This document shows positions 2,746 to 32,000 of a stretch of DNA of 32,000 bases, in pieces. The stretch covers positions 569,789 through 601,788 of the forward strand of contig JAMWCX010000001.1 of assembly GCA_023818895.1 (NCBI GenBank), read 5' to 3'. Numbering within the stretch: the stretch's first letter is position 1; each line of letters starts with the position of its first letter. This stretch comes from Candidatus Omnitrophota bacterium. GTDB taxonomy: Bacteria; Omnitrophota; Gorgyraeia; 2-01-FULL-45-10. Below the pieces are notes generated by a model. It did no database searches and had not been told where the DNA came from. It saw only the letters and a program-made list of their open reading frames with translations. Position numbers and translations under genes: made by a program.

Positions 2746-3740
2746 ATAGCGTATAGTCCTGCTTTATGCGGCAGCATCTTTCCTTCAGCGCGAAACCACT
2801 CCACTGTTCTTACTATACCATCTTCGAGGGAGCATTGTGGCTTCCAGCCCGTAAGTGAACAGATAAGAGTATTATCTCCGAGCAACCTTTCCACCTCGCT
2901 ACCTTTAGGCCTTACCCTGCACTCTTCCGTTTCAATATCCTTATCGGACCCCAACGCCTTTAATATTAGCCGGGCTAGATCCTCTATCGATACCTCTCTT
3001 CCACTACATATATTTATCGTCTTGCCTATAGCCTGGTCGTTTTCCGCCACTGCTATTAGTCCTGTGCATATATCGCTCACGTAGTTCATATCCCTAAATG
3101 TATGAATATTGCCGAGTCTTATAGCCTTCTGGTCCGAAAGGGCCTGCGTAATTATTGTGGGTATGATGGCTCTTACGGATTGCCTCGGCCCATAAGTATT
3201 GAACGGCCTGGCTATTACCACGGGAAGACCGAAACTCAGATAGAAAGATTCCGCCATCTTGTCCGCCGCTATCTTTGTCGCGGCATACGGTGACTGCGCC
3301 TGCAGAGGGTGCTTTTCATCGATCGGTACGTATAAAGCACTGCCGTAGACTTCTGATGTCGACGTCATGATAACCCTGTCCACACCCAGATCCCTCGCGG
3401 CTTGCAGGATATTCAGTGATCCCCTGATATTGGTGTCGACGTACGAATCGGGCGAGTGGTACGAAAATGGTATCCCTATCAATGCGGCAAGGTGGAATAC
3501 GACGGCAGAGCCCTTCATGGCTTTTTTTACACCGTGCGGGTCCTTGGCATTACCCATGTGCACATCGATTTTTTTCACAATCGACTTTGGCAACGTATCG
3601 AGCCACCCCCATGAGTTAAAGGCGTTATAATAAACAAAAGCACGCACGTCAGCTCCTTTATCCAGCAGATGCTCGACCAGATGACTGCCTATGAAACCAC
3701 ATGCGCCCGTCACGAACACCTTCTTACCACTAAGTCTCAC
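2742..3740 (-). CDS. NAD-dependent nucleotide-sugar 4,6-dehydratase, extended SDR (LegB-like)
   Basis: GTG at 3740 follows a strong GAGGAGG Shine-Dalgarno sequence. It has the Rossmann motif TGACGFIGSHL and the catalytic STSEVYG and YAATK (YxxxK) motifs. The segments NSWGWLD and YHSPDSYVDTN resemble LegB-type dehydratases as I recall them. Confidence 0.85.
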   Translation of the reverse strand: MRLSGKKVFVTGACGFIGSHLVEHLLDKGADVRAFVYYNAFNSWGWLDTLPKSIVKKIDVHMGNAKDPHGVKKAMKGSAVVFHLAALIGIPFSYHSPDSYVDTNIRGSLNILQAARDLGVDRVIMTSTSEVYGSALYVPIDEKHPLQAQSPYAATKIAADKMAESFYLSFGLPVVIARPFNTYGPRQSVRAIIPTIITQALSDQKAIRLGNIHTFRDMNYVSDICTGLIAVAENDQAIGKTINICSGREVSIEDLARLILKALGSDKDIETEECRVRPKGSEVERLLGDNTLICSLTGWKPQCSLEDGIVRTVEWFRAEGKMLPHKAGLYAI

Positions 3741-4560
3741 TTTTCCTCCTCATTATCATATTGTTAAAAAAGAAATTTGAGCCGGCTATGAATGGACCAT
3801 TAACCAGCTCCACTTTATTATAAGAAAGTCTTCGCCTTGTATGCGCATCGATAACCATGACACCTGCCTCTTCTGCTATTAGCTGGCCCGCGGCTGTATC
3901 CCACCCCATAGTTGGACCCAATCTGGGGTAGACATGTGCTTTTCCCTCAGCAATAAGACAGAACTTGAGAGAGCTGCCAACTAAGATATATTCAACCCTA
4001 TTATATAGTTTTTTAAGGCCTTCGACATACTCCTCGAGCTCTTCCGTCCTGTGCGATCGGCTCACTGCTACAATTATCTTATCTTTGGGAGTTTCATCGC
4101 TGATGCGGATCCGCTTCCTCCTACCATCCCCAGCTATCTTGAAAGCACCCCTATCCTTTAACGCATAATATATATCTCTATAAATAGGCACGCCAATCAC
4201 GCCCACAACCGGTGCACCATCCTCTATAAGCGCAATATTGATGGTGAACTCCTCGTTACGCATTATAAATTCCCTCGTACCGTCGAGTGGATCGATAAGC
4301 CAAAAAACGTTCCAATTCTGTCGTACTTCGTACGGAACAACGTCCTCTTCCGAAACAATCGGTATGTTAGGATAGAGTGCCTTAAGCCTGCTCTCTATAA
4401 AATCATGAGACAACTTATCCGCAAGTGTAAGAGGTGACGAATCCTCTTTGTGCTCCACGAAAAGCTCTTGCCTTCTATAGATATCTAGAATCTTCTCCCC
4501 CGCTTCACGGGCGATTGTTATTACCTCCTCGACTTTTATACCTCCAAAGGTGTCCCGCAC
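3730..4560 (-). CDS. cysQ: 3'(2'),5'-bisphosphate nucleotidase (PAP phosphatase), inositol monophosphatase superfamily
   Basis: GTG at 4560 has AAGAGGG upstream. Metal-binding and substrate motifs are VSEED, WLIDPLDGTREF and WDTAAG. It lies directly downstream of the PAPS synthase. Confidence 0.85.
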   Translation of the reverse strand: MRDTFGGIKVEEVITIAREAGEKILDIYRRQELFVEHKEDSSPLTLADKLSHDFIESRLKALYPNIPIVSEEDVVPYEVRQNWNVFWLIDPLDGTREFIMRNEEFTINIALIEDGAPVVGVIGVPIYRDIYYALKDRGAFKIAGDGRRKRIRISDETPKDKIIVAVSRSHRTEELEEYVEGLKKLYNRVEYILVGSSLKFCLIAEGKAHVYPRLGPTMGWDTAAGQLIAEEAGVMVIDAHTRRRLSYNKVELVNGPFIAGSNFFFNNMIMRRKSET

Positions 4561-4561
4561 C

Positions 4562-6346
4562 TTATACCCTCTTCCCGCTCTTCGCCCAGTCTATCAACAC
4601 ATCCACAACTTCTTTCCTCGAGAATTCCTCCGGAGGATAGATGCCGCCTTTGAGCATCTCGCGCACTTTTGTACCGCTGAGCTGAAGATGGTCTGTCTTA
4701 GGGTCATGCGGGCAGGTTTTAGCGCTCGCCATATTGCCGCACTTTTTGCAGAAAAACGAATTTTCAAACCTGAGCGGCGTTATGCCCAGCCTGTCGGCCA
4801 GCGAAACAAGCAGTTCCTGCGCTTCATACGGCCCGTAGTAATTGCCAACTCCGGCATGATCGCGCCCTATAATGAAATGCGTGCAGCCGTAATTCTTCCT
4901 GATGATCGCGTGATTGATCGCCTCGCGAGGTCCCGCATATCGCATAAATGTGGGCAAGACAGAAACAACTATCCTATCTTTATTGAAATAGCCTTTTATA
5001 AGAGCCTCGTAACACTTCATCCTCACCTTCGCAGGAATATCGTCCGGTTTTGTCTCTCCCACGAGCGGATGGATAAGTACCCCGTCGACCGATTCAAGGG
5101 CGCATTTTATGAGATATTCATGGGCTCTGTGTATCGGGTTTCTGGTCTGGAACGCGACTATGCTTGACCAGCCCCTTCTCCTGAACTCCTCGCGCGTCTG
5201 CCGGGGATCGAGATAATACGAGGATTCTACTTCGCTTCTGCGAGGACGGTTTAAGAGTGTTATCTCGCCCCCCAGGAAAGTATCTGGGCCTTCCATTATA
5301 ATCTTAGCACCCGGATGGGCCTTGTCATCAGTTTTAAACACGCCCTTACAAAAAGCGTCCTTGGGATAGGTGAATTTATCCGAGACTTTCATCAAAGCTA
5401 TGGGCCTTCTGTCGCTCTCGCAGAGGACTATCTCTTCACCGATACTTATTAATCGGGCATCTCTGTCATCTACAGTTAGAATTATTGGCACGCCCCACGC
5501 CAAACCATCTGAAAGAGCGCATCTCTTGACCACTTCATCCACATCATCTCGGTTCATGAAGCCGCTCAATGGGCTGAACGCGCCCACAGCCAGCATCTCA
5601 CAGTCCGAAAGGAACCGGTCCGCTACGATCACCTGCCTGAGAGAGCTTGCCTTTCTCAATAAAGCCTCTCTATCACCGCCTTCAGCTACTCTATTAATTA
5701 AGCCCCTCGAACCATATGGGGCATTAACACCCTTGGCCATTTTCCTGCCTATTATGTTATGCGCGATAAGATAATCGACTATCTTATCGACCGACTCATG
5801 CACCGAAAGCTTATCGGTCTCTATTATGATTTCTGGCTTGACTGGTTCTTCATACGGATCGCTTACACCAGTAAACCCTTTTATTTCTCCCGCCATGGCT
5901 TTCTTATAAAGGCCTTTGGGGTCACGTTCCATGCAAATAGATACCGGACACTTGATATATACCTCTACAAATTCTCCATCCTTCAGAAGGTCCCTGACAG
6001 CCTTTCTGTCAGCGCGGTAAGGTGATATGAAAGCTGTTATAGGAAGAATTCCTGCATCCACAAATAATTTAGCAACCTCTCCTATTCTACGTATATTCTC
6101 TTCGCGGTCCTCTTTGCTAAAACCCAAATTTTTATTAAGTCCATGCCTCACATTGTCACCGTCAAGGACATAAGTATGCACACCCATATTATTAAGAAAA
6201 TGTTCTAGCTCATTCGCTATCGTCGACTTTCCCGATGACGGCAAGCCCGTAAACCAGATAACGCATGACTTGTGATCCTTTATCGCCTGGCGCCTCTCCC
6301 TACCCACCTTGTGCTCATGCCACACCACATTCGTCGCTTTCGACAT
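4562..6346 (-). CDS. sat/cysC: Bifunctional adenylylsulfate kinase (N-terminal) / sulfate adenylyltransferase (C-terminal), i.e. a PAPS synthase
   Basis: Residues 1-200 are APS kinase: P-loop [54 protein letters not shown]. Residues from about 205 to 594 are ATP sulfurylase: [59 protein letters not shown]. It is a single uninterrupted ORF with ATG at 6346. Confidence 0.92.
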
Positions 6347-6349
6347 TTC

Positions 6350-6910
6350 CTATACCCTTTCTTCGATGCGAGCGGCGGTATTGCCATTTAACAAAACGCC
6401 CTCTGTCGATTTATTCAGCACCATCGCGTTAAAAAGATCGAACATGCTCTGCGCCTGCTCATAGAGATCCTTTATCTTGGCAAGCCTCTCTTTAAATACC
6501 TTTACCGACTCATCTCCGGACTCGTCTCCATTAACGACGGTATCTATCATATTGCTTGATGATCTTATCATATCATTCACAGCCGATAACCTGCTGTTCG
6601 CCATCGACTTGATCCTGTCTTTTATGACTTTCGAGATGTCAATATCAGCCTCATAATAATCCTTCCTCGAGCCTTTGACCCAGACCCGCCGCACCGCGCC
6701 ATACCTTTCAAGAGCCCTTATATTTACGCTGGCGCTGGCCTTGCTTATCTTGAGCCTCTTCACCATGTCATCGAGAGACATCGCGCCGTTGTGAAAATAC
6801 AAGACAACATAGAGTTGGGCCATTATGTTATTGAGCCCGAACTTACTGCATATCTGGTTCACTCTGTCCAGGAAAATATCCTGCGCTTCGATCAGTTTTT
6901 CCTTAGTCAT
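6350..6910 (-). CDS. Winged-helix transcriptional regulator, GbsR/MarR family
   Basis: ATG at 6910 has an AAGGA Shine-Dalgarno sequence. The wHTH core is MSLDDMVKRLKISKASASVNIRALERYGAVRRVWVKGSRKDYYEA. A long helical C-terminal region follows, as in GbsR-type regulators. Confidence 0.75.
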   Translation of the reverse strand: MTKEKLIEAQDIFLDRVNQICSKFGLNNIMAQLYVVLYFHNGAMSLDDMVKRLKISKASASVNIRALERYGAVRRVWVKGSRKDYYEADIDISKVIKDRIKSMANSRLSAVNDMIRSSSNMIDTVVNGDESGDESVKVFKERLAKIKDLYEQAQSMFDLFNAMVLNKSTEGVLLNGNTAARIEERV

Positions 6911-6925
6911 ATACCGTCCTTTAGG

Positions 6926-7645
6926 TTATTTTTTACAAACTATTATAAGATTCCGCGATAAAACTTTGGGCCTGTCCATACCTTTTTCAAGATAATATAT
7001 GTAGCCAAGCACTGCGGTCCACATGCTATTAAGTAGCCACCATAATATCCTCTGCGGCCGCATCTTCAGTCTTATCCTATCGCCACGAATAGCTATATCT
7101 TTAAATCCGGCTATCCTCATCACCTGATAAGCGCTTCTTTCGGTAAACCCTATCTCGTGAGTAAAATCAGTGTATCTTTGGAAAAGGCCTGAGACGCACG
7201 CCATGTTCGGCGTGGCAACCAGCAGGATTCCGCCTGGCTTAAGTGAACCATAAATCGAACGCAGATTCTCCCATAACTCGTCCTTGGAAAAGTGTTCGAT
7301 TACCTGATTCATCACGATAAGATCGTAGTGATTTGATCTTGAGTCAAGGTAGGAAGGGATAGAGGATATTACGCTTCCCTTAATGCCGAGCTTATTCAAG
7401 AACCTTATCTGCTCTTCGCCAATATCTATGCCTTCGATATTCGAGTATCCCTTATCTTTGAGATAGAAAAGAAACTGGCCTGCCCCGCTCCCTATCTCAA
7501 GTATATTAGCATGCTTATCGGAAGGCAAAAGATCTCTGAAATTGTCGGAATATGATTCCTGATTAGACCTGTGAACCTTTGTGTAATCGGAATCCTTACT
7601 ATCTATATAATTGCTGAATATAGCTTTCTTATAGTTATCGCCCAT
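6926..7645 (-). CDS. Class I SAM-dependent methyltransferase
   Basis: ATG at 7645. Motif I is ILEIGSGAGQFLFYL, followed by the acidic residue in IEGIDIGEE and the post-II motif LKPGGILLVATPN. It is the first gene downstream of the 7.7 kb promoter. Confidence 0.8.
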   Translation of the reverse strand: MGDNYKKAIFSNYIDSKDSDYTKVHRSNQESYSDNFRDLLPSDKHANILEIGSGAGQFLFYLKDKGYSNIEGIDIGEEQIRFLNKLGIKGSVISSIPSYLDSRSNHYDLIVMNQVIEHFSKDELWENLRSIYGSLKPGGILLVATPNMACVSGLFQRYTDFTHEIGFTERSAYQVMRIAGFKDIAIRGDRIRLKMRPQRILWWLLNSMWTAVLGYIYYLEKGMDRPKVLSRNLIIVCKK

Positions 7646-7756: not shown

Positions 7757-9214
7757 TTATCTAACGCGTATTGCGGATTTTAGGTATTTAAATAGGTGAA
7801 AACAACTCAAATTCCGATATATGGCATGCAGGCCGAGATTGGATCTACATTTTGAAACTAGGGTCTTTGCCATAAGGCTAATCATGGACCTCTTCCCTTT
7901 ATAGACATTGTAATCAAACCATATAAAAGCTTTCTGTATCTTCTTTTTAGGAAAGCCTGGCAGGTCAAGAACTGCCCTACATCTTTCAAGCTCTCCTGAA
8001 GGCATGCGTTTAAATAGTTCCTTTTTACGACATACATCATAGAGTTCAGTGCCAGGATAAGGGAAGAATATATGGGCAAACGCTTGATCGGGAAGACATT
8101 CTCTGTTTATCGCGATAGTCTCTTTAAAATCATCATAAGTTTCGCCGGGAACGCCTATTAGATTATAGAAACATATCTGGATACCATTTTGCCTCGCCAA
8201 GGCAACCGCCCTGATAATATCATTGTTCGAATAATCGCGCTTAAGAATCTCTTTCCTGACCCTTTCGCTTCCGGACTCAACACCTATCCTTACGAATTTA
8301 AAATTACTCTCCTTGAATAACCTAAAAAGGCCTGAGAAGTCTGATCCGCGAGTTATCCTGAGGTTTGTACCGAATAAAAGAGGCTCTTTTAGTGATGTAT
8401 TAACTCTCTTCAAGGCTGCACATAATTCATTCGCCCATGCCATATTCGCTCCTATCGTCTCAACCTCAAGGTATATTTGCTTTGTCCGCGGATAAGCTTC
8501 CACGATCATAATTATCTCCCGCGTGATGCTATCCACTGATCTAAGCCTCACGTATTGTCCTTGGGCAATCCTCCTGAGCGCGTGATTACAGCAATATGTA
8601 CAGTTAAAAGGGCATCCGCGGCCGAGAAGAACGGGTTGCCATACATCTTCTCCACCGGATATCCATTTTTGCCATATCTCTCTATCCGGAAAAGGCAGAC
8701 CGTCGATATCCTTTACGAAAGGCCTTGGATCGTTTTTTTCTACGGTGCCGTCTTTCATGATCCATAGATTTTGGATTCCCGATGGCACTTCTACCTTCGT
8801 AAGTTTCTCAGCAAGCTCAAGAGTGGGATATTCGCCTTCACCTATACATATGGCGTCGAAGGGTCCTTTCGCCACATCATTGGGGTTGAGCGATGCATGG
8901 GCTCCGCCGACAAGGAGGAAAAGTTCCGGATGCATTTTCTTTATATAACGGGCCGCTCTCTCGATAAAAGTATATTCACTAGTCACGGCGGTAAAACATA
9001 CTAGCCGCGGATTAAACCTCCCTATCGCCTCTTGGATCAATGTCTTATTGCGAGCTCCCAGCATCCTGCTCAATACCACAAGCTCTGTATTATGCCCTTG
9101 CGATTTTAGAAGAGACGAGATGTAAGAGATACCAAACTGCATCTGTTCTGGTGTGCGTAGAGGGCGCTCGGGGGTTGCAATATCATCTACTGAAGATATA
9201 AACAATATATGCAT
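7757..9214 (-). CDS. B12-binding-domain radical SAM enzyme (class B type)
   Basis: The N-terminal cobalamin-binding-like Rossmann segment is MHILFISSV...LVCFTAVTSEY...LLVGGAHAS. The radical SAM cluster motif is GRGCPFNCTYC (CxxxCxxC). The TIM-barrel segment is GVESGSERVRKEILKRDY...NLIGVPGET. Confidence 0.85.
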   Translation of the reverse strand: MHILFISSVDDIATPERPLRTPEQMQFGISYISSLLKSQGHNTELVVLSRMLGARNKTLIQEAIGRFNPRLVCFTAVTSEYTFIERAARYIKKMHPELFLLVGGAHASLNPNDVAKGPFDAICIGEGEYPTLELAEKLTKVEVPSGIQNLWIMKDGTVEKNDPRPFVKDIDGLPFPDREIWQKWISGGEDVWQPVLLGRGCPFNCTYCCNHALRRIAQGQYVRLRSVDSITREIIMIVEAYPRTKQIYLEVETIGANMAWANELCAALKRVNTSLKEPLLFGTNLRITRGSDFSGLFRLFKESNFKFVRIGVESGSERVRKEILKRDYSNNDIIRAVALARQNGIQICFYNLIGVPGETYDDFKETIAINRECLPDQAFAHIFFPYPGTELYDVCRKKELFKRMPSGELERCRAVLDLPGFPKKKIQKAFIWFDYNVYKGKRSMISLMAKTLVSKCRSNLGLHAIYRNLSCFHLFKYLKSAIRVR

Positions 9215-9217
9215 ATT

Positions 9218-10759
9218 TTATAATTCGTATTTTAGGCGTGGCATAAGCCATTTTATCATATCTCTTAATAAAGAAGAATCTACTAATTCTACCCAATGCC
9301 GCTTATCATAAGGGAGAGAAGCTATATATGAATTTATGTCTTTTGCATAAAGTTTGAAAAAAATATCATTCTCTGAATCATATACGTTTATATATTCTCT
9401 CACCTTGACTGCAACATCGTTTTTTGGATCCGTAAGCAGATTATTGGCGTATCTGAATCGTTTATTGATAGGCGCGCCGTTCGCCTGAGAACCTAACGCA
9501 AGTTTAAGAACAGGGCCGGCAACAAACCATTCTGACAAAAACTCGATATTGCTGATGGGGCCATATTTACTGTACTGGTTACCCGATATAAACACAATCT
9601 CAGTTCCGGAATATTCGGCAAGGTCCTTGTTGGTGGCCATTTTGTATATCACTGTTTGCTGATGCGCATTCCATGATTTCCAGTGGTCGGAGATGCCCAA
9701 GATAGCAAAAATGAAGACCGCAAATAAGATAGCGCCAATGCCGCGCTGAATACCAGCTGAGATGAGAAGATATACAACAAGTAATGACCCAAATATAGTT
9801 ACCCTGTTACCCAGATTAAAAGCCAATTGGGGATAAAGGCCGGTTAGCGATAACACAAAAAATGCCACTATAGTCATTGAAAAAAGGCTAATAACAAGTT
9901 TCGTATCACGCTGTGTTTTTATTTTATCATAAAGTGCGTAATAAAGACCCGTCGCCAATATACCGATAATAACCGAGGCAAATGAAAGTTGTACAAACGC
10001 ATAATATATTTTCAACCACATTGAAGGACCCAAGACCGCATCTGCAAATGTAGCCATTTGTAGAACAAACTGTTTAGCAATAGCATAAATATCGGGCCTC
10101 TTAGGAAGCTTGTCTACGCCTATACTAATCATCTTAGCTATTACGATATAATAGACACTATAGATAACGTTAGGAACTAGAAGAATAAAGCCTTTCTTTA
10201 CATGTCTATTTAAGACGGTTAGCATGAAAAGCGATACAGCTATTATAGGTGACCCATATGATATAAATGAACCTGCAAGCGCAAATAGGAATGCCGGCAG
10301 TAATTGCTCCCGCTGTGTCAAATAGTATGCATAGAGATAGAAAGCAAAAGATAATGTAAGATACTGAACCATGAACCAATACACGGTAGCATCGTGAGAC
10401 GGGAAAAACAAGAACAGAAAGGAGGTTAGCATTGCGTGTCGGTTATCAAAATAGATGCTGAAGAATTTGTAGATCATATAAAATGCCAAGATAATGTATA
10501 CGATCTTCATCACATCGACAATAGCGCTATTCCAGGCAGAGGCAAAATAATACCAGATATAGAAAAAGAGGTAGCCTAATGGAGTCTCGACGAACATTAT
10601 GGTGCTTTTTGGGATAAGCGCTTCTACAAGACTCTTCCCTTTAACACGTGCCATGATATCAAAATCATCGGACACCAGACCTGTATTCCACATGAGATAT
10701 ATGATAATAAGAATATATAAGAGGAAAAGAAGGCGATCGTTCTTCCAGAGATTTTCCAT
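9218..10759 (-). CDS. Polytopic inner-membrane protein with a C-terminal soluble domain; putative GT-C-fold (ArnT/PMT-like) glycosyltransferase
   Basis: The ORF track gives 9218-10798 with TTG at 10798. ATG at 10759 (MENLWKND) avoids a 32-nt overlap. By eye there are more than 10 hydrophobic helices. An acidic SDDFD motif follows the first helix, where GT-C enzymes carry their DxD/DDx motif. The last 150 or so residues are hydrophilic. The fold assignment is inference. Confidence 0.5.
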   Translation of the reverse strand: MENLWKNDRLLFLLYILIIIYLMWNTGLVSDDFDIMARVKGKSLVEALIPKSTIMFVETPLGYLFFYIWYYFASAWNSAIVDVMKIVYIILAFYMIYKFFSIYFDNRHAMLTSFLFLFFPSHDATVYWFMVQYLTLSFAFYLYAYYLTQREQLLPAFLFALAGSFISYGSPIIAVSLFMLTVLNRHVKKGFILLVPNVIYSVYYIVIAKMISIGVDKLPKRPDIYAIAKQFVLQMATFADAVLGPSMWLKIYYAFVQLSFASVIIGILATGLYYALYDKIKTQRDTKLVISLFSMTIVAFFVLSLTGLYPQLAFNLGNRVTIFGSLLVVYLLISAGIQRGIGAILFAVFIFAILGISDHWKSWNAHQQTVIYKMATNKDLAEYSGTEIVFISGNQYSKYGPISNIEFLSEWFVAGPVLKLALGSQANGAPINKRFRYANNLLTDPKNDVAVKVREYINVYDSENDIFFKLYAKDINSYIASLPYDKRHWVELVDSSLLRDMIKWLMPRLKYEL

Positions 10760-10766
10760 AAATGCG

Positions 10767-12140
10767 TTAGCCACAGTTAAAATATTTATCGTAAACAATG
10801 GCGGGAATGATATTCATGGTAGACAATATCCTGAGAGGGATCCTAAGGAAGCGTATATAGTTATAGCTTGTGGGATAGTCACGAAATGTCTTTGGCGCCT
10901 CCGCGAGGTATTTGTCCAGCTCTTGGTGAGTTATTCCGAGTCTCTTTATACATAGATCAATGATTTTTGGATCCTCGATCACATATACTTCCTTAATTCT
11001 CTCTAATGCTTCGTCTCTGGTCATCTGGCCGGATCTTACTAGAGCCGAATAATTGAACTTACGCCTATCTATATTAAACTTTACACGCAGCACATACGTC
11101 ATGAGACTTTGGTAGAGATCATCGTAATAATGAGCTCCCGGATATCTCCACCCCAGTTCTGTTATAATGGCTTCCGCTTCCTTTCTCACATAGGGTACAT
11201 AATACAATAGAGGTACGGTTCTGATACCTCTCAATACAATATAATAAAAAAGATGCCATAGATCCAAATTAAACCCCGGGTCTTCGGGCTTCCATCTTCT
11301 CAGCTTAACAGAGCCAAATCTGCGATGAACATTTTTAAGATACTTACCGTCTAGGTAATTCCATACGAGCGGGCTGATACCTTCAGTTCTGAATGACTGG
11401 CCGATTATAACATATTTTACACCTTCCCTGAATGCGGTTCCATACAGAGCACTTGCTATTCCTATATCCGTCCCCTCCTCCATATCTGGAGTGGAAGCTT
11501 TTAGAAACGCTATCTTAATATCTTTCGATTCACGCCAATCAGAGGTAATGGTCCTAAGTTCCACCCCAAGCTTTGCGGTAACCTTACGCATATTCTCGCC
11601 GGCAACCGGATTACCGAATCCGTCATTAAAATGAACCGCTAACGGCCGTAATCCGAATTTCTTCAGGAGATATAGTGTGTAGGTACTGTCACGTCCGCCA
11701 CTCAAACCAGCGATACAATCAAACTTCTTCCCTATTCCGGATTTTTTTATCTTTTCGATGATCCTCGCAAGCTTACGGCTACCTTCAGGGGTAAGCGGAT
11801 ACGCGCGTTCCAATCTGTCGTGAAGCTTGCAGAAATTGCATTCACCCTTTTCATCAAATGTTACTCCTGGGACGGTAGTATCTATTATGCACCGCGAACA
11901 GACCTTATATTCCATTTTTGAGATAACCTTTTTTTGCAACATCTCTCCGATTTGCACGCCTTTTTCTATCCTGCGAGGTGCTTCAAATTCGGCAACAACA
12001 AGCTCCCCCGCAAACTCATTGTAGGGCCCCTGGGCGACAACGCCTTGACGACCGACAGCAAGTGAGCATCCTACCATCTTCCTGCCTTCGTATGGCCCAC
12101 CAACAATATAACCAACGCTAGTAGCACTAATAATTACCAA
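10767..12140 (-). CDS. N-acetyl-sugar amidotransferase (WbuX/PseA/WbpG family, PP-loop ATP pyrophosphatase); its 5' end encodes the C-terminal part of a C-N hydrolase domain
   Basis: From M76 (ATG at 11915) it has the zinc ribbon CSRCIIDTTVPGVTFDEKGECNFC, the PP-loop FDCIAGLSGGRDSTY, and the later YYDDLYQSLMTYVLRVKFNIDRRK...SGQMTRDEALE. Residues 1-55 (VIISATSVGYIVGGPYEGRKMVGCSLAVGRQGVVAQGPYNEFAGELVVAEFE) continue the nitrilase-superfamily fold of ORF 12134-12745. This frame stays open upstream to 12203. The tracked start is a TTG with no Shine-Dalgarno sequence. Confidence 0.85.
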   Translation of the reverse strand: MVIISATSVGYIVGGPYEGRKMVGCSLAVGRQGVVAQGPYNEFAGELVVAEFEAPRRIEKGVQIGEMLQKKVISKMEYKVCSRCIIDTTVPGVTFDEKGECNFCKLHDRLERAYPLTPEGSRKLARIIEKIKKSGIGKKFDCIAGLSGGRDSTYTLYLLKKFGLRPLAVHFNDGFGNPVAGENMRKVTAKLGVELRTITSDWRESKDIKIAFLKASTPDMEEGTDIGIASALYGTAFREGVKYVIIGQSFRTEGISPLVWNYLDGKYLKNVHRRFGSVKLRRWKPEDPGFNLDLWHLFYYIVLRGIRTVPLLYYVPYVRKEAEAIITELGWRYPGAHYYDDLYQSLMTYVLRVKFNIDRRKFNYSALVRSGQMTRDEALERIKEVYVIEDPKIIDLCIKRLGITHQELDKYLAEAPKTFRDYPTSYNYIRFLRIPLRILSTMNIIPAIVYDKYFNCG

Positions 12141-12745
12141 ATTGTAAAGGTTCGCGAGAGTAAAATATGGCTTAAACCACTTTTCTCCATACGGGTCTCT
12201 CCTTCAATAACCGAATAATCGACGGTCCACGATGATGGTGTGAGGATTATTTGCGGCATCATCCTGGCCAGAGCATGGCCTATATGTAGGCTGTCAAGAT
12301 AATTATCCGCGCATATATTTACACCTACAATGCCAAAGGGTGTTTCCACAACTAACAGGCGGTCACCAACAGCATAATATTCCTGCTCTACCACGAGAAG
12401 ATTGATTTTATGATATTTTAGAACAATCTCGCCTGCGGAATCAATTAATATGGCAGTATTGTACACGCGGTCTCGTGCTTTCTCTGTCAGACCTGCGCAA
12501 ATATAAATACCTTTCTGGCTAGCTAATTTACAAAGCCTGTCGCTATAAGGCCCTGGCACTGGCTTGGCTTCTGTCTTTGCGCTCGGATGGGTCCACCCAA
12601 GATCAAGTGTTTCCGGCAAAAGCACGATATCACACTCTTTCTGAACCGTTTCCTTTATCATTTCTTCAGCACGATTGAGGTTACGGTCGGGCTCACCCCC
12701 TTCGACTAGCAATTGCCCCATACCTACTTTGATATATTTTCCCAT
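12134..12745 (-). CDS. Carbon-nitrogen hydrolase (nitrilase superfamily) domain, N-terminal two thirds; frameshift-separated from the downstream amidotransferase frame
   Basis: ATG at 12745. A candidate Glu-Lys-Cys triad is present: DIVLLPETL, VLKYHKINL, GVNICADNY. The ORF ends in non-family sequence (ETRMEKSGLSHILLSRTFTIW) after PSSWTVDYSVIEGE. The -1 frame continues with family-like DPYGEKWFKPYFTLANLYNLVIISATSVG. Confidence 0.8.
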   Translation of the reverse strand: MGKYIKVGMGQLLVEGGEPDRNLNRAEEMIKETVQKECDIVLLPETLDLGWTHPSAKTEAKPVPGPYSDRLCKLASQKGIYICAGLTEKARDRVYNTAILIDSAGEIVLKYHKINLLVVEQEYYAVGDRLLVVETPFGIVGVNICADNYLDSLHIGHALARMMPQIILTPSSWTVDYSVIEGETRMEKSGLSHILLSRTFTIW

Positions 12746-12752
12746 ATACCTT

Positions 12753-13142
12753 TTAGACCTTATACATAAAATACAGACTAGCTATGATCATTACTATAGC
12801 TAATATCTTATTCATATTAACAATTTCGCCGAAGAATATGGATGCAAGAGGCACAATTATAAGACAACTCAGCGCTATCGACAAGGGATATGCGATAGAT
12901 AGCTCCATGCGAGAAAGAGCGATGGCAGATGGTAAAGGCGCTAGCAAGAACAATATCAATCCAACAAGTGCAAGAGGTGACATTACAAGCGATAGAAAAT
13001 AACCCGTAACCGCCTTGACCGAGGTTAGTTCAATAGCCCCCAATTCGTTCATCCTCATCTTTACAAAATACATACCCAGCACGTTCATGATGACACCTAC
13101 TAATATCATCCCCCAGGTTAGCAAAAAAGTTTTCAAATTCAT
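12753..13142 (-). CDS. Small 4-TM DMT/EamA-type membrane protein; putative polyprenyl-phosphate-sugar flippase (ArnE/ArnF/GtrA-like role)
   Basis: 129 aa with four hydrophobic helices. It has an EamA-like tail (SIAYPLSIALSCLIIVPLASIFFGEIVNMNKILAIVMIIASLYF). Its start overlaps the stop of the ArnC-like GT2 (TGATG). Confidence 0.6.
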   Translation of the reverse strand: MNLKTFLLTWGMILVGVIMNVLGMYFVKMRMNELGAIELTSVKAVTGYFLSLVMSPLALVGLILFLLAPLPSAIALSRMELSIAYPLSIALSCLIIVPLASIFFGEIVNMNKILAIVMIIASLYFMYKV

Positions 13143-14086
13143 CAGTATCTCCCCTCTTTGGCATCGGATCTTTTCTCTATAAAAAAAAGTGGCCGTCTGC
13201 GGGATTCATCTAGATTGCGCCAAAGATATTCACCTATCACGCCCAGCGCGCTTGTATGCACACCGCATACCATCAGTATGGCGACTACTATAATCGCCGT
13301 CCCTGATACTACTCGGCCAACTACGGTCATTATGAACAAAATTAGCGCACAGAATATGCCGATAATCGTAATTGCCACACCTATCAGCATAATCAACATG
13401 AGCGGTAGGCCTGAGAAGGCAATAATCCAATCTCTGGCTAAAACGAGACGGGTCCGCAGACTCCACTTAGACCTCCCTGAGAGGCGATGGCGCCGCTTAT
13501 AACTTACGGAATCGTGCGTAAAGCCTGCCCATGCTATTAGGCCAAAAAGAGATGTATTTCGCTCGACGCAAGCATTGACGGCATTGACCATTTCTCGATC
13601 AAGGAAAAAGAAGTCAGCCTTTGAGAAATCTATCTTCTTGTATTCGGTGCGCGCAAGCCAGAAGAGGAGGCGATAAAAAATCTCGGCAGGCTTTCTGATG
13701 TGCCAGGGCTCTATTCTCCTGTCTTCCCTGAGCGCCCAAATCACAGAAGCGCCCTTTTTGTATTTTTCCAACATCTCTTTAAGCACTGAAGGATCATCCT
13801 GACCATCACCTGATATGCATAGCACCGCGTCACCCGTAACTTCACGCAAACCTGCCCGCAGAGCAGTATGACTGCCAGAGCGTCTGCTTAACCTAATACA
13901 CATAAGCCGCGAATCCTTAATGGCATCTACAACCTCATATGTTCTATCTGAAGAATGGTCATCAACAACTACCATCTGTACCTGTTTAATATCGGAAATA
14001 TTATCGACCATTGAAAATATTTCTTCAATTACTGAAACGATATTATCAGCTTCATTGTACACTGGTATTACAATAGATAAATTCAT
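13142..14086 (-). CDS. GT2 polyprenyl-phosphate glycosyltransferase (ArnC/GtrB/DPM1-like)
   Basis: Motifs are LSIVIPVYNEADNI, VVVDDHSSDRT, ISGDGQDDP and SGRSKWS. Two C-terminal TM helices are followed by GVIGEYLWRNLDESRRRPLFFI, which closely parallels the ArnC/GtrB C-terminus. The start is in an ATGA overlap. Confidence 0.85.
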   Translation of the reverse strand: MNLSIVIPVYNEADNIVSVIEEIFSMVDNISDIKQVQMVVVDDHSSDRTYEVVDAIKDSRLMCIRLSRRSGSHTALRAGLREVTGDAVLCISGDGQDDPSVLKEMLEKYKKGASVIWALREDRRIEPWHIRKPAEIFYRLLFWLARTEYKKIDFSKADFFFLDREMVNAVNACVERNTSLFGLIAWAGFTHDSVSYKRRHRLSGRSKWSLRTRLVLARDWIIAFSGLPLMLIMLIGVAITIIGIFCALILFIMTVVGRVVSGTAIIVVAILMVCGVHTSALGVIGEYLWRNLDESRRRPLFFIEKRSDAKEGRY

Positions 14087-25512: not shown

Positions 25513-26832
25513 TCAGGACATAAAACATTTATTACAAAGGTCTATCTTGCCGCTCACCATAGCTTTGCGGAATTTCCTGTAGCGCTTAGAGTTCCATACC
25601 TTACCTATTGCTCCATTGTCAAGGCGCAGCCCCTTCAAAAGAGTCCCGTCAAAATCTATACAGCATGGCGTAAGATTCCCATTACTCATTATGGCTACAG
25701 ACCTATAAGGCCATCCGCACAAACTTTTCTTTTTTTCTATGGAGACCTTTTTCTTCTCTTTGCCGAAAGCAAGCCCGCCGTCGGTCGGTGCCAGCGCCGA
25801 GCCGGCCTCATCGCCAAGGTTGGTGAACTCATAAAAATAGCCCTTGAAGAGTATTCGGTCTGCCCCCAGTTCTTCCCTGAATTTCTTATATGAGTCAATC
25901 TGGCCTTCTGTATACTTGGTAACTACCATCTGCATCACTATCTCAGGTCTTACAAGAGCTCTTTCCTTTTTGGCCTTTGCGAGGTTTCTAACAAAATTAC
26001 ATACCTTGTCGAAATCGCCGCCTTGTCTGAAACTCTCATACGCCGAACTGTCTGTCCCATCCACAGAGATGCTTATCAAGTCGATATCGGTCTCGAGGAG
26101 CTTTGAGGCGATTTCAGTTCCCTCAGCGAAGCTTCCGTTTGTATGCAGCTCTATCCTCGTATAAGGGCCTGAGACATCACGCAGAGTTTTAAGAAAGCTG
26201 AATATTTTCTTGTTAAGAAGCGGCTCACCAAAAAGGAATGGATAGATAGCATCAACGTATCTAAAATAACTCCTGTTCTTATCTATTATCGTATCAAAGA
26301 CGCTTTCGGACAACAGCATAGCCGGCCTTGTAAGCTGGCTTAAGCCTGTAGGGCATGCTCTGCATTTTAAATTACAGACAGAGGCTGTCTCGATATAAAA
26401 TTCCGAGGGCCGTCCGATCCCTATAGACAGTTTGAGTTTTTTCGAAAGCTGTATAAGGAGTTTATTTATAAAATACGGCGCTTTCTTAAATATCAGGCCG
26501 ATAAACCCAATACGTCCAATCTCAGCGACAGAACCTTTCCCGGAAACATCTACCAAAAACAATTTTTTGTACTTAAGATGACTGGCAAGGATAATCGTAT
26601 TTAAACTGAAGCCGTGGTCAACTACAATCGCATCGAATTTCCTTCCCTTAAGCCCTGCAATACCTCCCTGCTCTATAACCTCAACGCCGAAATCGTATGC
26701 CTTCGCTATGCCTGGTGTGTTTTTGGTAATAAGTGTAATATGGCTATATGGCAGATATTTCTTCACAGCCTCAAGAGACGTGTAAATCCATGAATAATTT
26801 GATATGAGCGCTATATCTTTTACCTTATTCAT
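25513..26832 (-). CDS. Radical SAM enzyme with a SPASM/twitch-like C-terminal Cys-rich domain and an N-terminal extension of about 140 aa
   Basis: Cluster motif ETASVCNLKCRACPTG (CxxxCxxC), then FGEPLLN. The C-terminal cysteines are CGWPYRSVAIMSNGNLTPCC and CNKCF. The start is in an ATGA overlap. Confidence 0.8.
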   Translation of the reverse strand: MNKVKDIALISNYSWIYTSLEAVKKYLPYSHITLITKNTPGIAKAYDFGVEVIEQGGIAGLKGRKFDAIVVDHGFSLNTIILASHLKYKKLFLVDVSGKGSVAEIGRIGFIGLIFKKAPYFINKLLIQLSKKLKLSIGIGRPSEFYIETASVCNLKCRACPTGLSQLTRPAMLLSESVFDTIIDKNRSYFRYVDAIYPFLFGEPLLNKKIFSFLKTLRDVSGPYTRIELHTNGSFAEGTEIASKLLETDIDLISISVDGTDSSAYESFRQGGDFDKVCNFVRNLAKAKKERALVRPEIVMQMVVTKYTEGQIDSYKKFREELGADRILFKGYFYEFTNLGDEAGSALAPTDGGLAFGKEKKKVSIEKKKSLCGWPYRSVAIMSNGNLTPCCIDFDGTLLKGLRLDNGAIGKVWNSKRYRKFRKAMVSGKIDLCNKCFMS

Positions 26833-31982: not shown

Positions 31983-32000
31983 CAATACGCCCGCTATGTC

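What the first reader, a model, noticed from the sequence alone, without database searches (positions are those of the whole stretch)
10767..12745. C-N hydrolase (nitrilase-superfamily) domain fused in line with a WbuX/PseA/WbpG-type N-acetyl-sugar amidotransferase, broken by one -1 frameshift
**Split fold.** ORF 12134-12745 encodes the first two thirds of a nitrilase-superfamily fold, with candidate Glu-Lys-Cys triad residues in LLPETL, YHKINL and ICADNY. It ends in non-family residues.

**Frameshift.** The -1 frame is open from 12203 and reads DPYGEKWFKPYFTLANLYNLVIISATSVGYIVGGPYEGRKMVGCSLAVGRQG...ELVVAEFE. That is the missing C-terminal third of the same fold. With no stop codon it runs on into a complete N-acetyl-sugar amidotransferase: zinc ribbon CSRC...CNFC, PP-loop SGGRDS, and the WbuX-type tail. 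Both frames are open only between 12137 and 12203. A 1-nt deletion or a -1 slip near GGAGAGAC (about 12190-12203) restores a single protein of about 650 aa.

**Why it matters.** Amidotransferases of this family convert N-acetyl to acetamidino groups. They are normally stand-alone or paired with HisH/HisF-like glutaminase/cyclase partners (WbuY/WbuZ), and none is present here. A C-N hydrolase glutaminase fused N-terminally to a PP-loop ATP pyrophosphatase is exactly the architecture of glutamine-dependent NAD+ synthetase (NadE). This suggests a convergent ammonia-channelling solution for acetamidino-sugar synthesis. I am not aware of this being described.

**The frameshift itself** needs explanation. 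It could be an assembly error, a true pseudogenisation that leaves the amidotransferase expressed from ATG 11915, or recoding.
Basis: partly seen in the sequence, partly recalled or inferred. Interest (0 to 1): 0.85.

Follow-up and report, generated by a model that had tools for sequence, protein, structure and literature searches.

The report
Broken amidase gene beside sugar amidotransferase
The apparent fusion enzyme is an illusion made by two single-base deletions in a nitrilase-family amidase gene, which normally sits as a separate, slightly overlapping gene just upstream of a sugar amidotransferase gene; this two-gene pairing is conserved across several bacterial phyla and may be an undescribed way of feeding ammonia to that enzyme.

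Summary
The domains and the frameshift near 12200 are real. The fusion is not.

- **Orthologous loci:** all 127 adjacent pairs have two genes: a CN-hydrolase of about 280 aa with its own stop, then a WbuX-type N-acetyl sugar amidotransferase (NASAT) of about 383 aa. The closest ones overlap by 11 nt (ATGGAATATAA).
- **Second deletion:** It puts the CN-hydrolase C-terminus in frame with the NASAT. The ancestral TAA (11905-11907) survives in the third frame.
- **No natural fusions:** none among the best 150 representative proteins.
- **Lesions probably real:** both recur in a second MAG, and no other gene in the 32 kb is visibly split. Assembly error is not excluded.
- **What survives of the idea:** the pair is tightly linked in both directions across at least five phyla. 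HisH/HisF homologues are absent from all 160 loci. More distant NASATs carry hisH-hisF2 in the same upstream slot.

I infer, untested, a two-subunit amidotransferase with a nitrilase-type ammonia donor, like the Thermus two-subunit NAD synthetase. In this organism that donor is inactivated.

The parts
11905..12745 (-). Whole CN-hydrolase (nitrilase-superfamily amidase) gene, disrupted by two 1-nt deletions. Conceptual repair gives 280 aa ending ...QKKGYLKNGI*.
   Evidence: DNA alignment with orthologous loci L001 and L004. The repaired translation is 75-77% identical over 96-99% of its length to stand-alone CN hydrolases, mostly 270-305 aa.
12134..12745 (-). ORF as it stands: 203 aa, about 182 native residues plus a 21-residue out-of-frame tail. 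Deposited as MCM8790631.1.
   Evidence: The AlphaFold model of orthologue P0121 shows that the missing C-terminal part holds one helix and five beta-strands of the fold.
12197..12203 (-). Frameshift site 1: a 1-nt gap relative to the orthologues (GAAGG-AGAGACCC). It is not a slippery heptamer.
11929..11935 (-). Frameshift site 2: a run of 7 A where 8 A would restore the native C-terminus. In the current frame it reads CAA AAA AAG, which contains the A AAA AAG heptamer at 11928-11934.
11905..11907 (-). Ancestral TAA stop of the CN-hydrolase gene, still present, in the third frame. It forms part of the conserved ATGGAATATAA start/stop overlap.
12611..12613 (-). Codon for catalytic Glu45 (LLPETL).
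   Evidence: Invariant in alignments A3 and A4.
12407..12409 (-). Codon for catalytic Lys113 (YHKIN).
12311..12313 (-). Codon for catalytic Cys145 (ICADN).
10767..11915 (-). Intact N-acetyl sugar amidotransferase (NASAT, WbuX/WbpG/PseA family) gene, 382 aa, starting MEYKVCSRC.
   Evidence: TIGR03573 scores 224.7 bits against a cutoff of 203.2. Orthologues of 383 aa start at the same Met. The window protein deviates at 0 of 96 highly conserved columns.
11829..11900 (-). Zn-ribbon tetracysteine motif of the NASAT (CSRC ... GECNFC).
   Evidence: The motif is defined for the family in PMC10607449. All four Cys are invariant in alignment A1.
11685..11702 (-). PP-loop SGGRDS of the NASAT (ATP pyrophosphatase signature).
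   Evidence: PMC10607449.
11916..12140 (-). Spurious N-terminal extension of the NASAT ORF: CN-hydrolase C-terminal residues read in frame from TTG 12140. GenBank models it from a Met within this stretch, as MCM8790630.1 (436 aa).
12753..13142 (-). 129-aa small hydrophobic protein (only weak EamA-like Pfam hit), immediately upstream of the pair. Conserved in that position in 26 of 80 related loci.
13142..14086 (-). GT2 glycosyltransferase resembling the polyprenyl-phosphate sugar synthases PgfS and ArnC. Frequent upstream neighbour (context).
9218..10798 (-). 526-aa hydrophobic, probably membrane, protein with no family match. Downstream neighbour, conserved in the closest loci (context).

Best explanation
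**What is there (shown).** The locus holds two genes, not one. A stand-alone nitrilase-superfamily amidase gene (280 aa when repaired) lies directly upstream of a WbuX/WbpG-type PP-loop N-acetyl sugar amidotransferase (NASAT) gene. The two overlap by 11 nt. In this Omnitrophota lineage the amidase gene carries two independent 1-nt deletions, at about 12200 and in an A-run at 11929-11935.
- The first deletion truncates the protein after about 182 native residues.
- The second shifts the remaining C-terminal coding sequence into the NASAT frame. That creates the illusion of an in-line fusion.
- The NASAT gene is intact.

**Status of the lesions (inferred).** They are most likely real and recent, so the amidase gene is a young pseudogene. 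The NASAT would then be made from its own ATG at 11915 and use free ammonia.

**Function of the intact pair elsewhere (inferred, not shown).**
1. The amidase hydrolyses glutamine or a similar small amide and releases NH3.
2. The NASAT adenylates the N-acetyl carbonyl of a sugar, using ATP.
3. The NH3 attacks the adenylated carbonyl and gives an acetamidino group.

On this reading the amidase is the ammonia-donor subunit. It takes the role that HisH/HisF2 (WbuY/WbuZ) play for other NASATs, and that the nitrilase-like G-subunit plays in the two-subunit NAD synthetase of Thermus thermophilus.
For: **Architecture**
- Orthologous loci L001-L004 show separate genes of 280/271 aa and 383/384 aa with an 11-nt overlap.
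- The DNA alignment shows two 1-nt gaps in the window, and the conserved ATGGAATATAA junction is intact.
- Homologue C-termini match frame 0 and then the third frame of the window.
- The doubly repaired product is 280 aa.
- 0 of 127 adjacent pairs are fused. No two-domain hit appears among the best 150 of 9,527 representatives.

**Lesions real**
- A second MAG (MCM8761084.1 and MCM8761085.1, on a 6.9-kb contig) encodes the same frameshifted tail and the same read-through ORF.
- Both lesions fall in one 843-bp gene. The other large minus-strand ORFs tile the window with no visible break.
- The closest intact relatives listed in the 5.8-billion-protein search are only 75-77% identical.

**Lesions recent**
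- Only 2 of 95 highly conserved columns deviate in the repaired amidase, and both changes are conservative. The NASAT deviates at 0 of 96.

**Partnership**
- The amidase gene is present in 75 of 80 NASAT-selected loci, from Omnitrophota, Planctomycetota, Bacteroidota, Bdellovibrionota and Opitutia.
- The NASAT gene is present in 69 of 80 amidase-selected loci. Seven of the 11 loci without it have under 600 nt of downstream sequence.
- In Hymenobacter qilianensis the pair stands alone between valS and a ferredoxin gene.
- A divergent pair, 42% and 48% identical, is also adjacent.

**Replacement of HisH/HisF**
- No HisH/HisF hit in the 160 loci or the window, with a working positive control.
- Spirosoma and Massilia plasmids carry hisH, then 'AglZ/HisF2 family acetamidino modification protein', then the NASAT, in the same upstream slot.
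- HisF2/HisH2 are proposed to deliver ammonia to WbpG, and a WbpG-HisF2 interaction was reported (PMC11445079).

**Precedent**
- The Thermus TTC1538/TTC1539 two-subunit NAD synthetase has a nitrilase-like glutaminase working in trans. Its synthetase subunit alone still uses NH3 (PMC3376133).

**Fold**
- Orthologue P0121 models confidently (pLDDT 91, pTM 0.91). Its nearest solved structures are small-amide hydrolases: mouse Nit2, and the Pyrococcus horikoshii amidase solved with bound glutaramide.

**Dispensability**
- Other lineages with an intact NASAT have deleted, truncated or frameshifted the amidase gene: L005, L006, L012, L078.
Against: **Against the ammonia-donor role**
- There is no biochemical evidence for glutaminase activity or for a complex.
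- The amidase is not in the NadE G-domain clade. NF010588 scores 34.8 bits against a cutoff of 479. Solved NadE ranks about 35th (E 4e-10), far behind PH0642 and Nit2 at 1e-24 to 1e-29.
- A complex model could not be built.
- Gene adjacency is equally compatible with a sequential role for the amidase.
- The substrate is unknown. In Hymenobacter the pair is not in a glycan cluster.

**Against real lesions**
- The two MAGs may come from the same project or population, so a systematic error is not excluded.
- One lesion lies in a homopolymer.
Confidence: 0.72

Rival explanations
1. Both frameshifts are assembly or consensus errors of the MAG. In the living organism the amidase gene would be intact and the ordinary two-gene module functional.
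For:
- One lesion lies in a 7/8-A homopolymer.
- The source is a metagenome-assembled genome.
- A frameshift in the same gene of Hymenobacter humi occurs on a contig named 'tig00000001'.
Against: - The identical pair of lesions is encoded in a second MAG on a different contig.
- Two errors fall in one 843-bp gene while no other large ORF in the 32 kb is visibly split. If two lesions landed at random, the chance that the second falls in the same gene is about 843/32000, or 3%.
- Site 1 is not in a long homopolymer.
Confidence: 0.22
2. One reading: a single bifunctional protein of about 650 aa (CN-hydrolase fused to NASAT, NadE-like) is made here. The fusion would either be ancestral or be restored by recoding at the 12200 site.
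For: - In the sequence as it stands, frame 0 is open from 12203 to 10767.
- One inserted base near 12200 yields one ORF that scores for both domains.
Against: - The continuity depends on a second deletion in the A-run.
- 0 of 127 orthologous pairs and none of the 150 best representative proteins are fused.
- The ancestral stop codon is still in place.
- Site 1 (GAA GGA GAG ACC) has no X XXY YYZ slippery motif.
Confidence: 0.03
3. The amidase is not an ammonia donor. It would act on the sugar pathway itself, for example by removing an N-acyl or carbamoyl group or by hydrolysing an amide or amidine on the nucleotide- or polyprenol-linked sugar, one step before or after the NASAT.
For: - Its nearest relatives are small-amide and carbamoyl hydrolases of varied specificity: Nit2, N-carbamoylputrescine amidase, formamidase.
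- In many loci it sits in a module resembling ArnC / small membrane protein / large membrane protein. The Arn pathway includes a deformylation step on the lipid-linked sugar (my own knowledge of that pathway).
Against: - The amidase travels with the NASAT even where no glycan genes are nearby (Hymenobacter).
- It occupies the slot that HisH/HisF2 hold in other NASAT operons, and it is found where they are absent.
- Its repeated loss with the NASAT retained fits an accessory donor better than an obligatory pathway step.
Confidence: 0.25
4. The A-run is a phase-variation or slippage switch. Transcriptional or ribosomal -1 slippage at A AAA AAG would toggle between a native C-terminus and read-through into the NASAT.
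For: In the current frame the site reads CAA AAA AAG. That contains the heptamer used for -1 frameshifting in E. coli dnaX (my own knowledge). A -1 slip there would restore KKGYLKNGI* exactly.
Against: - The upstream lesion at about 12200 already ends translation at 12134, so few ribosomes would reach the site in that frame.
- The orthologues examined have no A-run there (CTCAAGCGAAAAGG and CTGAGTAGAAAGGG).
- A downstream stimulatory structure was not looked for.
Confidence: 0.04

Closest known systems
WbpG/WbuX/PseA N-acetyl sugar amidotransferases with HisH/HisF2 (WbuY/WbuZ) partners
   Same: - Same NASAT family: TIGR03573 scores above its cutoff, with the Zn tetracysteine motif and the PP-loop SGGXDS (PMC10607449).
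- Same operon logic: a candidate ammonia-generating partner lies immediately upstream and often overlaps the NASAT gene.
   Different: - The partner is one nitrilase-superfamily amidase, not a class-I glutaminase (HisH) plus a HisF-like barrel. No HisH/HisF homologue was found in the 160 related loci.
- The NASATs seen with HisH/HisF2 are only 33-39% identical to the window protein.
Two-subunit ('type C') glutamine-dependent NAD synthetase of Thermus thermophilus (TTC1538/TTC1539), and fused NadE
   Same: - A PP-loop ATP-pyrophosphatase synthetase is encoded next to a nitrilase-superfamily protein.
- In Thermus the two proteins form a tight complex that uses glutamine, and the synthetase alone still uses NH3 (PMC3376133). 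That fits the repeated loss of the amidase gene seen here.
   Different: - The synthetase family and the substrate differ: a sugar N-acetyl group here, a nicotinate carboxylate there.
- The amidase is not in the NadE G-domain clade.
- No fused form was found.
- Complex formation and glutaminase activity are untested here.
Nit2 omega-amidase and Pyrococcus horikoshii amidase PH0642 (nitrilase-superfamily small-amide hydrolases)
   Same: - Closest solved structures by sequence (E 1e-24 to 1e-29) and by fold (Foldseek E 2e-22 and 7e-21, TM about 0.77-0.80).
- Same Glu-Lys-Cys triad.
- They release NH3 from glutamine-like amides. Nit2 acts on alpha-ketoglutaramate (my own knowledge). The PH0642 entry 6YPA is described as having bound glutaramide.
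   Different: - Identity is only 24-30%.
- Many solved relatives align only to residues 5-177.
- The C-terminal third and a conserved tail (R-x-EKGT-x-IGEML-x-x-KGY) are specific to this clade.
- The dedicated pairing with a NASAT gene is not a feature of those enzymes.

Membership tests
Nitrilase superfamily (Pfam PF00795 CN_hydrolase) | Profile match above the gathering threshold | tested here: met
   106.6 bits against a cutoff of 23.2 for the repaired protein, and 105.8 bits for the 203-aa ORF.
Nitrilase superfamily (Pfam PF00795 CN_hydrolase) | Catalytic Glu-Lys-Cys triad | tested here: met
   E45, K113 and C145 are present in the window. They are invariant in 13- and 60-sequence alignments.
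Nitrilase superfamily (Pfam PF00795 CN_hydrolase) | Complete alpha-beta-beta-alpha sandwich encoded by one intact reading frame | tested here: not met
   In the window the frame breaks after about residue 182 and again near residue 272. The orthologue model has the full fold (pLDDT 91; Foldseek hit to Nit2 at E 2e-22).
N-acetyl sugar amidotransferase (TIGR03573 WbuX / NASAT) | Profile score above NCBIfam's curated cutoff | tested here: met
   224.7 bits against a cutoff of 203.2.
N-acetyl sugar amidotransferase (TIGR03573 WbuX / NASAT) | PP-loop SGGXDS and tetracysteine motif CXXCXn[GN]XCXXC (PMC10607449) | tested here: met
   SGGRDS at 11685-11702, and CSRC...GECNFC at 11829-11900. Invariant in alignment A1.
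N-acetyl sugar amidotransferase (TIGR03573 WbuX / NASAT) | Catalyses N-acetyl to acetamidino conversion on a sugar | not testable with these tools
   The only solved family member (8WEX) matches weakly, at E 1.5e-10. No activity data exist for this clade.
HisH/HisF2 (WbuY/WbuZ)-dependent acetamidino system | HisH-like glutaminase and HisF-like protein encoded beside the NASAT | tested here: not met
   None in the window or in the 160 related loci. The positive control on Spirosoma and Massilia loci worked.
Fused glutamine-dependent NadE-like architecture (nitrilase domain plus PP-loop domain in one chain) | Both domains in one uninterrupted ORF, conserved in relatives | tested here: not met
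   0 of 127 adjacent pairs are fused. No two-stretch hit appears among the 150 best representatives. The window's continuity needs a second deletion.
NadE G-domain ('class IV' glutaminase) clade | Closest relationship to NadE glutaminase domains | tested here: not met
   NF010588 scores 34.8 bits against a cutoff of 479. PDB NadE 5KHA has E 3.9e-10, far behind PH0642 and Nit2. NadE is absent from the top 50 fold matches.
Two-subunit amidotransferase (glutaminase subunit plus synthetase subunit) | Conserved operonic linkage of the two genes | tested here: met
   75 of 80 and 69 of 80 loci in reciprocal surveys. Intergenic gaps run from -41 to +299 nt, with a median of 49.
Two-subunit amidotransferase (glutaminase subunit plus synthetase subunit) | Physical complex, glutaminase activity and ammonia transfer | not testable with these tools
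Programmed -1 ribosomal frameshift (dnaX type) | Slippery heptamer X XXY YYZ at each shift site, conserved in relatives | tested here: not met
   A AAA AAG is present at site 2 only. Site 1 has none, and the orthologues need no shift.

The most novel reading that the evidence does not exclude
The intact CN-hydrolase/NASAT pair, found across Omnitrophota, Planctomycetota, Bacteroidota (including cultured Hymenobacter), Bdellovibrionota and Opitutia, would be a two-subunit amide-dependent acetamidino synthase. In it a nitrilase-superfamily amidase, rather than HisH/HisF2, generates and hands over ammonia. That would make it only the second amidotransferase system known to use a nitrilase-type ('class IV') glutaminase, evolved independently of NAD synthetase. 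The window would then show a lineage that has just lost the donor subunit and fallen back on free ammonia.
Probability: 0.42. Interest if true: 0.65.

Novelty: new variant of a known kind. Interest (0 to 1): 0.42.

Why it matters
**For annotation.** Two frameshifts can mimic a domain fusion. GenBank already carries the result as a 436-aa 'N-acetyl sugar amidotransferase' with a false N-terminal extension.

**For biology.** How NASAT enzymes obtain ammonia is unsettled. The structure paper on the Legionella NASAT says little is known of the family's functional properties (PMC10607449). The HisH2/HisF2 route is still described as a hypothesis backed by an interaction (PMC11445079).

A compact two-gene unit that lacks HisH/HisF and occurs in cultured Hymenobacter would be a simple system for reconstitution. 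If the amidase proves to be the donor, nitrilase-type glutaminases would extend beyond NAD synthetase. It would also show non-orthologous replacement of an ammonia-delivery module.

Tried and rejected
- **Complex model.** I built a paired alignment of concatenated amidase and NASAT sequences from 20 loci, to test for a confident inter-domain arrangement.
- **Source contig.** Looking up the window's own contig through P0001 returned nothing. The sequencing technology and reads could not be identified.
- **Neighbourhoods of more distant NASATs.** P0243, P0250, P0254 and P0292 mostly lie on short contigs and were uninformative. Where flanks existed, neither an amidase nor HisH/HisF was seen.
- **Literature.** Searches for NASAT together with 'carbon-nitrogen hydrolase' or 'nitrilase' found no paper.
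- **Recoding.** Considered and rejected as an explanation of the whole gene: only site 2 is slippery.
- **NadE kinship of the amidase.** Tested by NCBIfam, a PDB profile search and Foldseek. Not supported.
- **Fusions among long NASAT proteins.** Of the ten proteins of 696-1179 aa scanned with Pfam, eight showed partners: GT4/GT1 domains, an LPG-synthase TM domain or asparagine synthase. Two showed no recognisable partner domain. None showed CN_hydrolase.


Full report
**1. What the sequence shows**

On the minus strand, ORF 12134-12745 (203 aa) matches Pfam CN_hydrolase (E 3e-30), but only over profile positions 13-177 of 256. It contains E45 (LLPETL), K113 (YHKIN) and C145 (ICADN). It ends in an unrelated tail, ETRMEKSGLSHILLSRTFTIW*.

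A second frame opens after the TGA at 12204-12206 and reads RRDPYGEKWFKPYF... It continues without a stop through MEYKVCSRC... to 10767. A conceptual one-base repair gives 660 aa. That product scores CN_hydrolase over residues 18-255 and TIGR03573 WbuX at 222.5 bits against a cutoff of 203.2.

**2. The fusion is an artefact of a second frameshift**

A database search with the conceptual fusion returned only stand-alone amidotransferases among the best 120 hits. They are 373-436 aa long, and none covers more than 66% of the query, the highest being the window's own 436-aa model.

A search with the repaired N-terminal 278 aa returned only stand-alone CN hydrolases. Most are 270-305 aa, 65-77% identical, and cover 96-99% of the query. 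That coverage includes the supposed linker.

Many hits in the two lists share the same longest-contig length, so I fetched the loci. L001-L004 have the same gene order as the window. In them the CN-hydrolase gene (280 or 271 aa) and the amidotransferase gene (383 or 384 aa) are separate, in different frames, and overlap by 11 nt.

A DNA alignment of the window with L001 and L004 shows two 1-nt gaps in the window:

Homologue C-termini (...IGEMLKRKGYVKDGI*...IGEMLVKKGYIKNGI*) match the window's frame 0 up to IGEMLQKK. After that they match its third frame, GYLKNGI*. The junction ATGGAATATAA is conserved, and the ancestral TAA survives at 11905-11907. Repairing both sites gives a 280-aa protein ending ...QKKGYLKNGI*. 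The in-frame continuity into the amidotransferase therefore exists only because of the second deletion.

**3. No natural fusion was found**

- In 160 related loci, 80 from species genomes chosen through the amidotransferase and 80 from metagenomes chosen through the CN-hydrolase, I found 127 adjacent pairs.
- All 127 have a stop codon ending the CN-hydrolase gene. Gaps run from -41 to +299 nt, and seven pairs have the same 11-nt overlap.
- A full HMMER scan of 1.84 billion representative proteins with the 660-aa conceptual fusion gave 9,527 hits. Every one of the best 150 matches only one half of the query.
- The long amidotransferase-containing proteins sampled (696-1179 aa) are fused to GT4/GT1 glycosyltransferases, an LPG-synthase TM domain or asparagine synthase, not to a CN-hydrolase. 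Two of the ten sampled had no recognisable partner domain.

**4. Are the lesions real or errors?**

The window comes from a Candidatus Omnitrophota MAG. Its proteins are MCM8790630.1 and MCM8790631.1, on a 732-kb contig. A second MAG, on a 6.9-kb contig, encodes two matching products:
- a partial CN-hydrolase with the same frameshifted tail (MCM8761084.1);
- the same read-through ORF, MVIISATS...KKVISKMEYKV... (MCM8761085.1).

So both lesions recur in a second assembly.

The other large minus-strand ORFs tile the window with no visible break, while this 843-bp gene carries two lesions. That clustering is what one expects once a first hit has removed selection. It is unlikely for two random errors, at about 3%.

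It deviates at 2 of 95 columns that are at least 97% conserved among 120 orthologues, and 17.5% of the orthologues deviate as much or more. The amidotransferase deviates at 0 of 96.

I conclude that this is a recent pseudogene (about 0.7). Assembly error is the main alternative (about 0.2). The two MAGs may not be independent, and one lesion lies in a homopolymer.

The truncated product would lack one helix and five beta-strands of the fold, judged from a confident model of orthologue P0121 (pLDDT 91, pTM 0.91).

**5. The slippery site**

In the current frame the A-run reads CAA AAA AAG. That contains A AAA AAG, the heptamer known from E. coli dnaX (my own knowledge). A -1 slip there would restore the native tail exactly.

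The upstream lesion is not slippery and already stops translation at 12134. The orthologues examined have no A-run at this position. I treat the heptamer as a mutational hotspot, not as recoding.

**6. What the intact pair probably does**

*Linkage.* The linkage is tight in both directions.
- The CN-hydrolase gene is present in 75 of 80 loci selected through the amidotransferase. These come from Omnitrophota, Planctomycetota, Bacteroidota (many cultured Hymenobacter species), Bdellovibrionota and Opitutia.
- The amidotransferase gene is present in 69 of 80 loci selected through the CN-hydrolase. Seven of the 11 loci without it have under 600 nt of downstream sequence.
- A divergent marine pair (42% and 48% identity) is also adjacent, with a 4-nt overlap.
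- In Hymenobacter qilianensis the pair stands alone between valS and a ferredoxin gene, so the conserved unit is the pair itself.

*HisH/HisF.* No HisH/HisF homologue occurs in the window or in any of the 160 loci. The same queries detect the HisH and HisF2 genes of the Spirosoma and Massilia plasmids at E values of 1e-35 or better. In those plasmids the order is hisH, then 'AglZ/HisF2 family acetamidino modification protein', then the N-acetyl sugar amidotransferase, with small overlaps. That is the slot the CN-hydrolase occupies in the window's clade. Their amidotransferases are only 33-39% identical to the window's.

*Literature.* HisH2/HisF2 are proposed to deliver ammonia to WbpG, and a WbpG-HisF2 interaction has been reported (PMC11445079). 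A nitrilase-like glutaminase working in trans with a PP-loop synthetase has a tested precedent in the Thermus thermophilus two-subunit NAD synthetase. Its synthetase subunit alone still uses ammonia (PMC3376133).

*Recurrent loss.* That last point fits the repeated loss of the CN-hydrolase gene where the amidotransferase is intact:
- this window;
- L005, with an in-frame deletion of residues 64-184;
- L078, with a frameshift;
- L006 and L012, where the gene is absent.

*Inference.* I infer a two-subunit amidotransferase in which the amidase supplies NH3. The steps are not shown. The evidence is comparative only.

**7. Limits of that inference**

- The amidase is not a NadE G-domain relative. 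NF010588 scores 34.8 bits against a cutoff of 479, and solved NadE ranks about 35th in a profile search of the PDB.
- Its nearest solved relatives by sequence and by fold are Nit2 and the Pyrococcus horikoshii amidase PH0642, whose entry 6YPA has bound glutaramide. N-carbamoylputrescine amidase and formamidase follow.
- These are small-amide hydrolases, which is compatible with ammonia release from a glutamine-like amide. A direct role on the sugar is equally compatible.
- In many non-Hymenobacter loci the pair sits within a recurring set of neighbours: a PgfS/ArnC-like GT2, a small membrane protein of about 128 aa and, in the closest loci, a large hydrophobic protein. That leaves room for a sequential-step model.
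- A complex prediction could not be run.

**8. Comparison with what is known, and novelty**

- The amidotransferase is a member of the NASAT family. It scores above the TIGR03573 cutoff and has the Zn tetracysteine motif and the PP-loop described for Legionella NASAT.
- The amidase is a member of the nitrilase superfamily.
- The locus is not a NadE-like fusion, and it is not a HisH/HisF2-dependent system.
- I found no paper that mentions NASAT together with CN hydrolases or nitrilases.
- The window itself is an ordinary, if instructive, pseudogene artefact. The conserved pair behind it looks like an undescribed variant of a known kind of system.

**Verdict**

| Question | Assessment |
|---|---|
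| Observation | partly confirmed |
| Fusion interpretation | refuted |
| Ammonia-donor idea | retained as an inference, in two-subunit form |
| Interest | moderate |

Noticed in passing
window 20499-23210 (-): One 903-aa ORF joins a B12-binding radical SAM half (residues about 21-373) to a GT4/GT1 glycosyltransferase half (about 516-876). I did not check whether this is a genuine fusion or another read-through.
   Followed up: no
window 3730-6346 (-): A bifunctional APS kinase/ATP sulfurylase (594 aa) lies next to an inositol-monophosphatase-family (CysQ-like) gene inside the glycan cluster. This suggests local PAPS supply and a sulfated polysaccharide.
   Followed up: no
window 9218-10798, 12753-13142 and 13142-14086 (-): The pair is flanked by a PgfS/ArnC-like GT2, a 129-aa small hydrophobic protein and a 526-aa hydrophobic protein with no family match. 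The small protein recurs just upstream of the amidase in 26 of 80 related loci, the GT2 in 20 and the large protein in 7. The layout resembles polyprenol-phosphate-sugar modification modules of the Arn/Gtr type.
   Followed up: partly
L034 6897-9143 (Hymenobacter qilianensis NZ_CP060784.1): In H. qilianensis the amidase/NASAT pair is an isolated two-gene unit between valyl-tRNA synthetase and a ferredoxin gene, not in a polysaccharide cluster. The other Hymenobacter loci likewise lack the window's glycan-module neighbours.
   Followed up: partly
L005 2313-2776; L078 7034-7862; L006; L012: The amidase gene is independently damaged or missing beside an intact NASAT in other lineages. L005 has an in-frame deletion of residues 64-184. 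L078 (H. humi) has a frameshift near residue 223. In L006 and L012 the gene is absent.
   Followed up: partly
L032/L038, L039/L043 and L044/L045: Several genomes carry two copies of this NASAT clade, and the amidase gene lies close upstream of only one copy. In L038 it lies about 3.3 kb upstream of the NASAT, and L032 has none.
   Followed up: no
P0244-P0299 and others (one search list): Many NASAT domains occur in 600-1179-aa proteins. Of ten sampled, eight were fused to GT4/GT1 glycosyltransferases, an LPG-synthase TM domain or asparagine synthase. P0262 and P0263 (860 and 808 aa) have N-terminal regions of about 400-480 aa with no Pfam match.
   Followed up: partly
L086 1060-7167: Two NASAT paralogues lie in tandem (3786-4844 and 6013-7152), separated by a DUF354 gene. 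A 902-aa asparagine-synthase/GT2 fusion lies just upstream. Neither HisH/HisF nor a CN-hydrolase is within 6 kb.
   Followed up: no
window 11928-11934 (-): The heptamer A AAA AAG lies in the current reading frame at the second lesion. A -1 slip there would regenerate the native C-terminus of the amidase.
   Followed up: partly
window 7757-9214, 25513-26832 and 30948-31985 (-): Beyond the 903-aa ORF, the cluster holds another B12-binding radical SAM gene and two radical SAM/SPASM genes. That is an unusually high radical-SAM content for a glycan locus.
   Followed up: no
window 12134-12140 (-): The stop of the truncated amidase ORF (TAA, 12134-12136) overlaps a TTG at 12138-12140 that opens the 457-aa read-through ORF (TTGGTAA). 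Termination-reinitiation could in principle yield an N-terminally extended NASAT.
   Followed up: no
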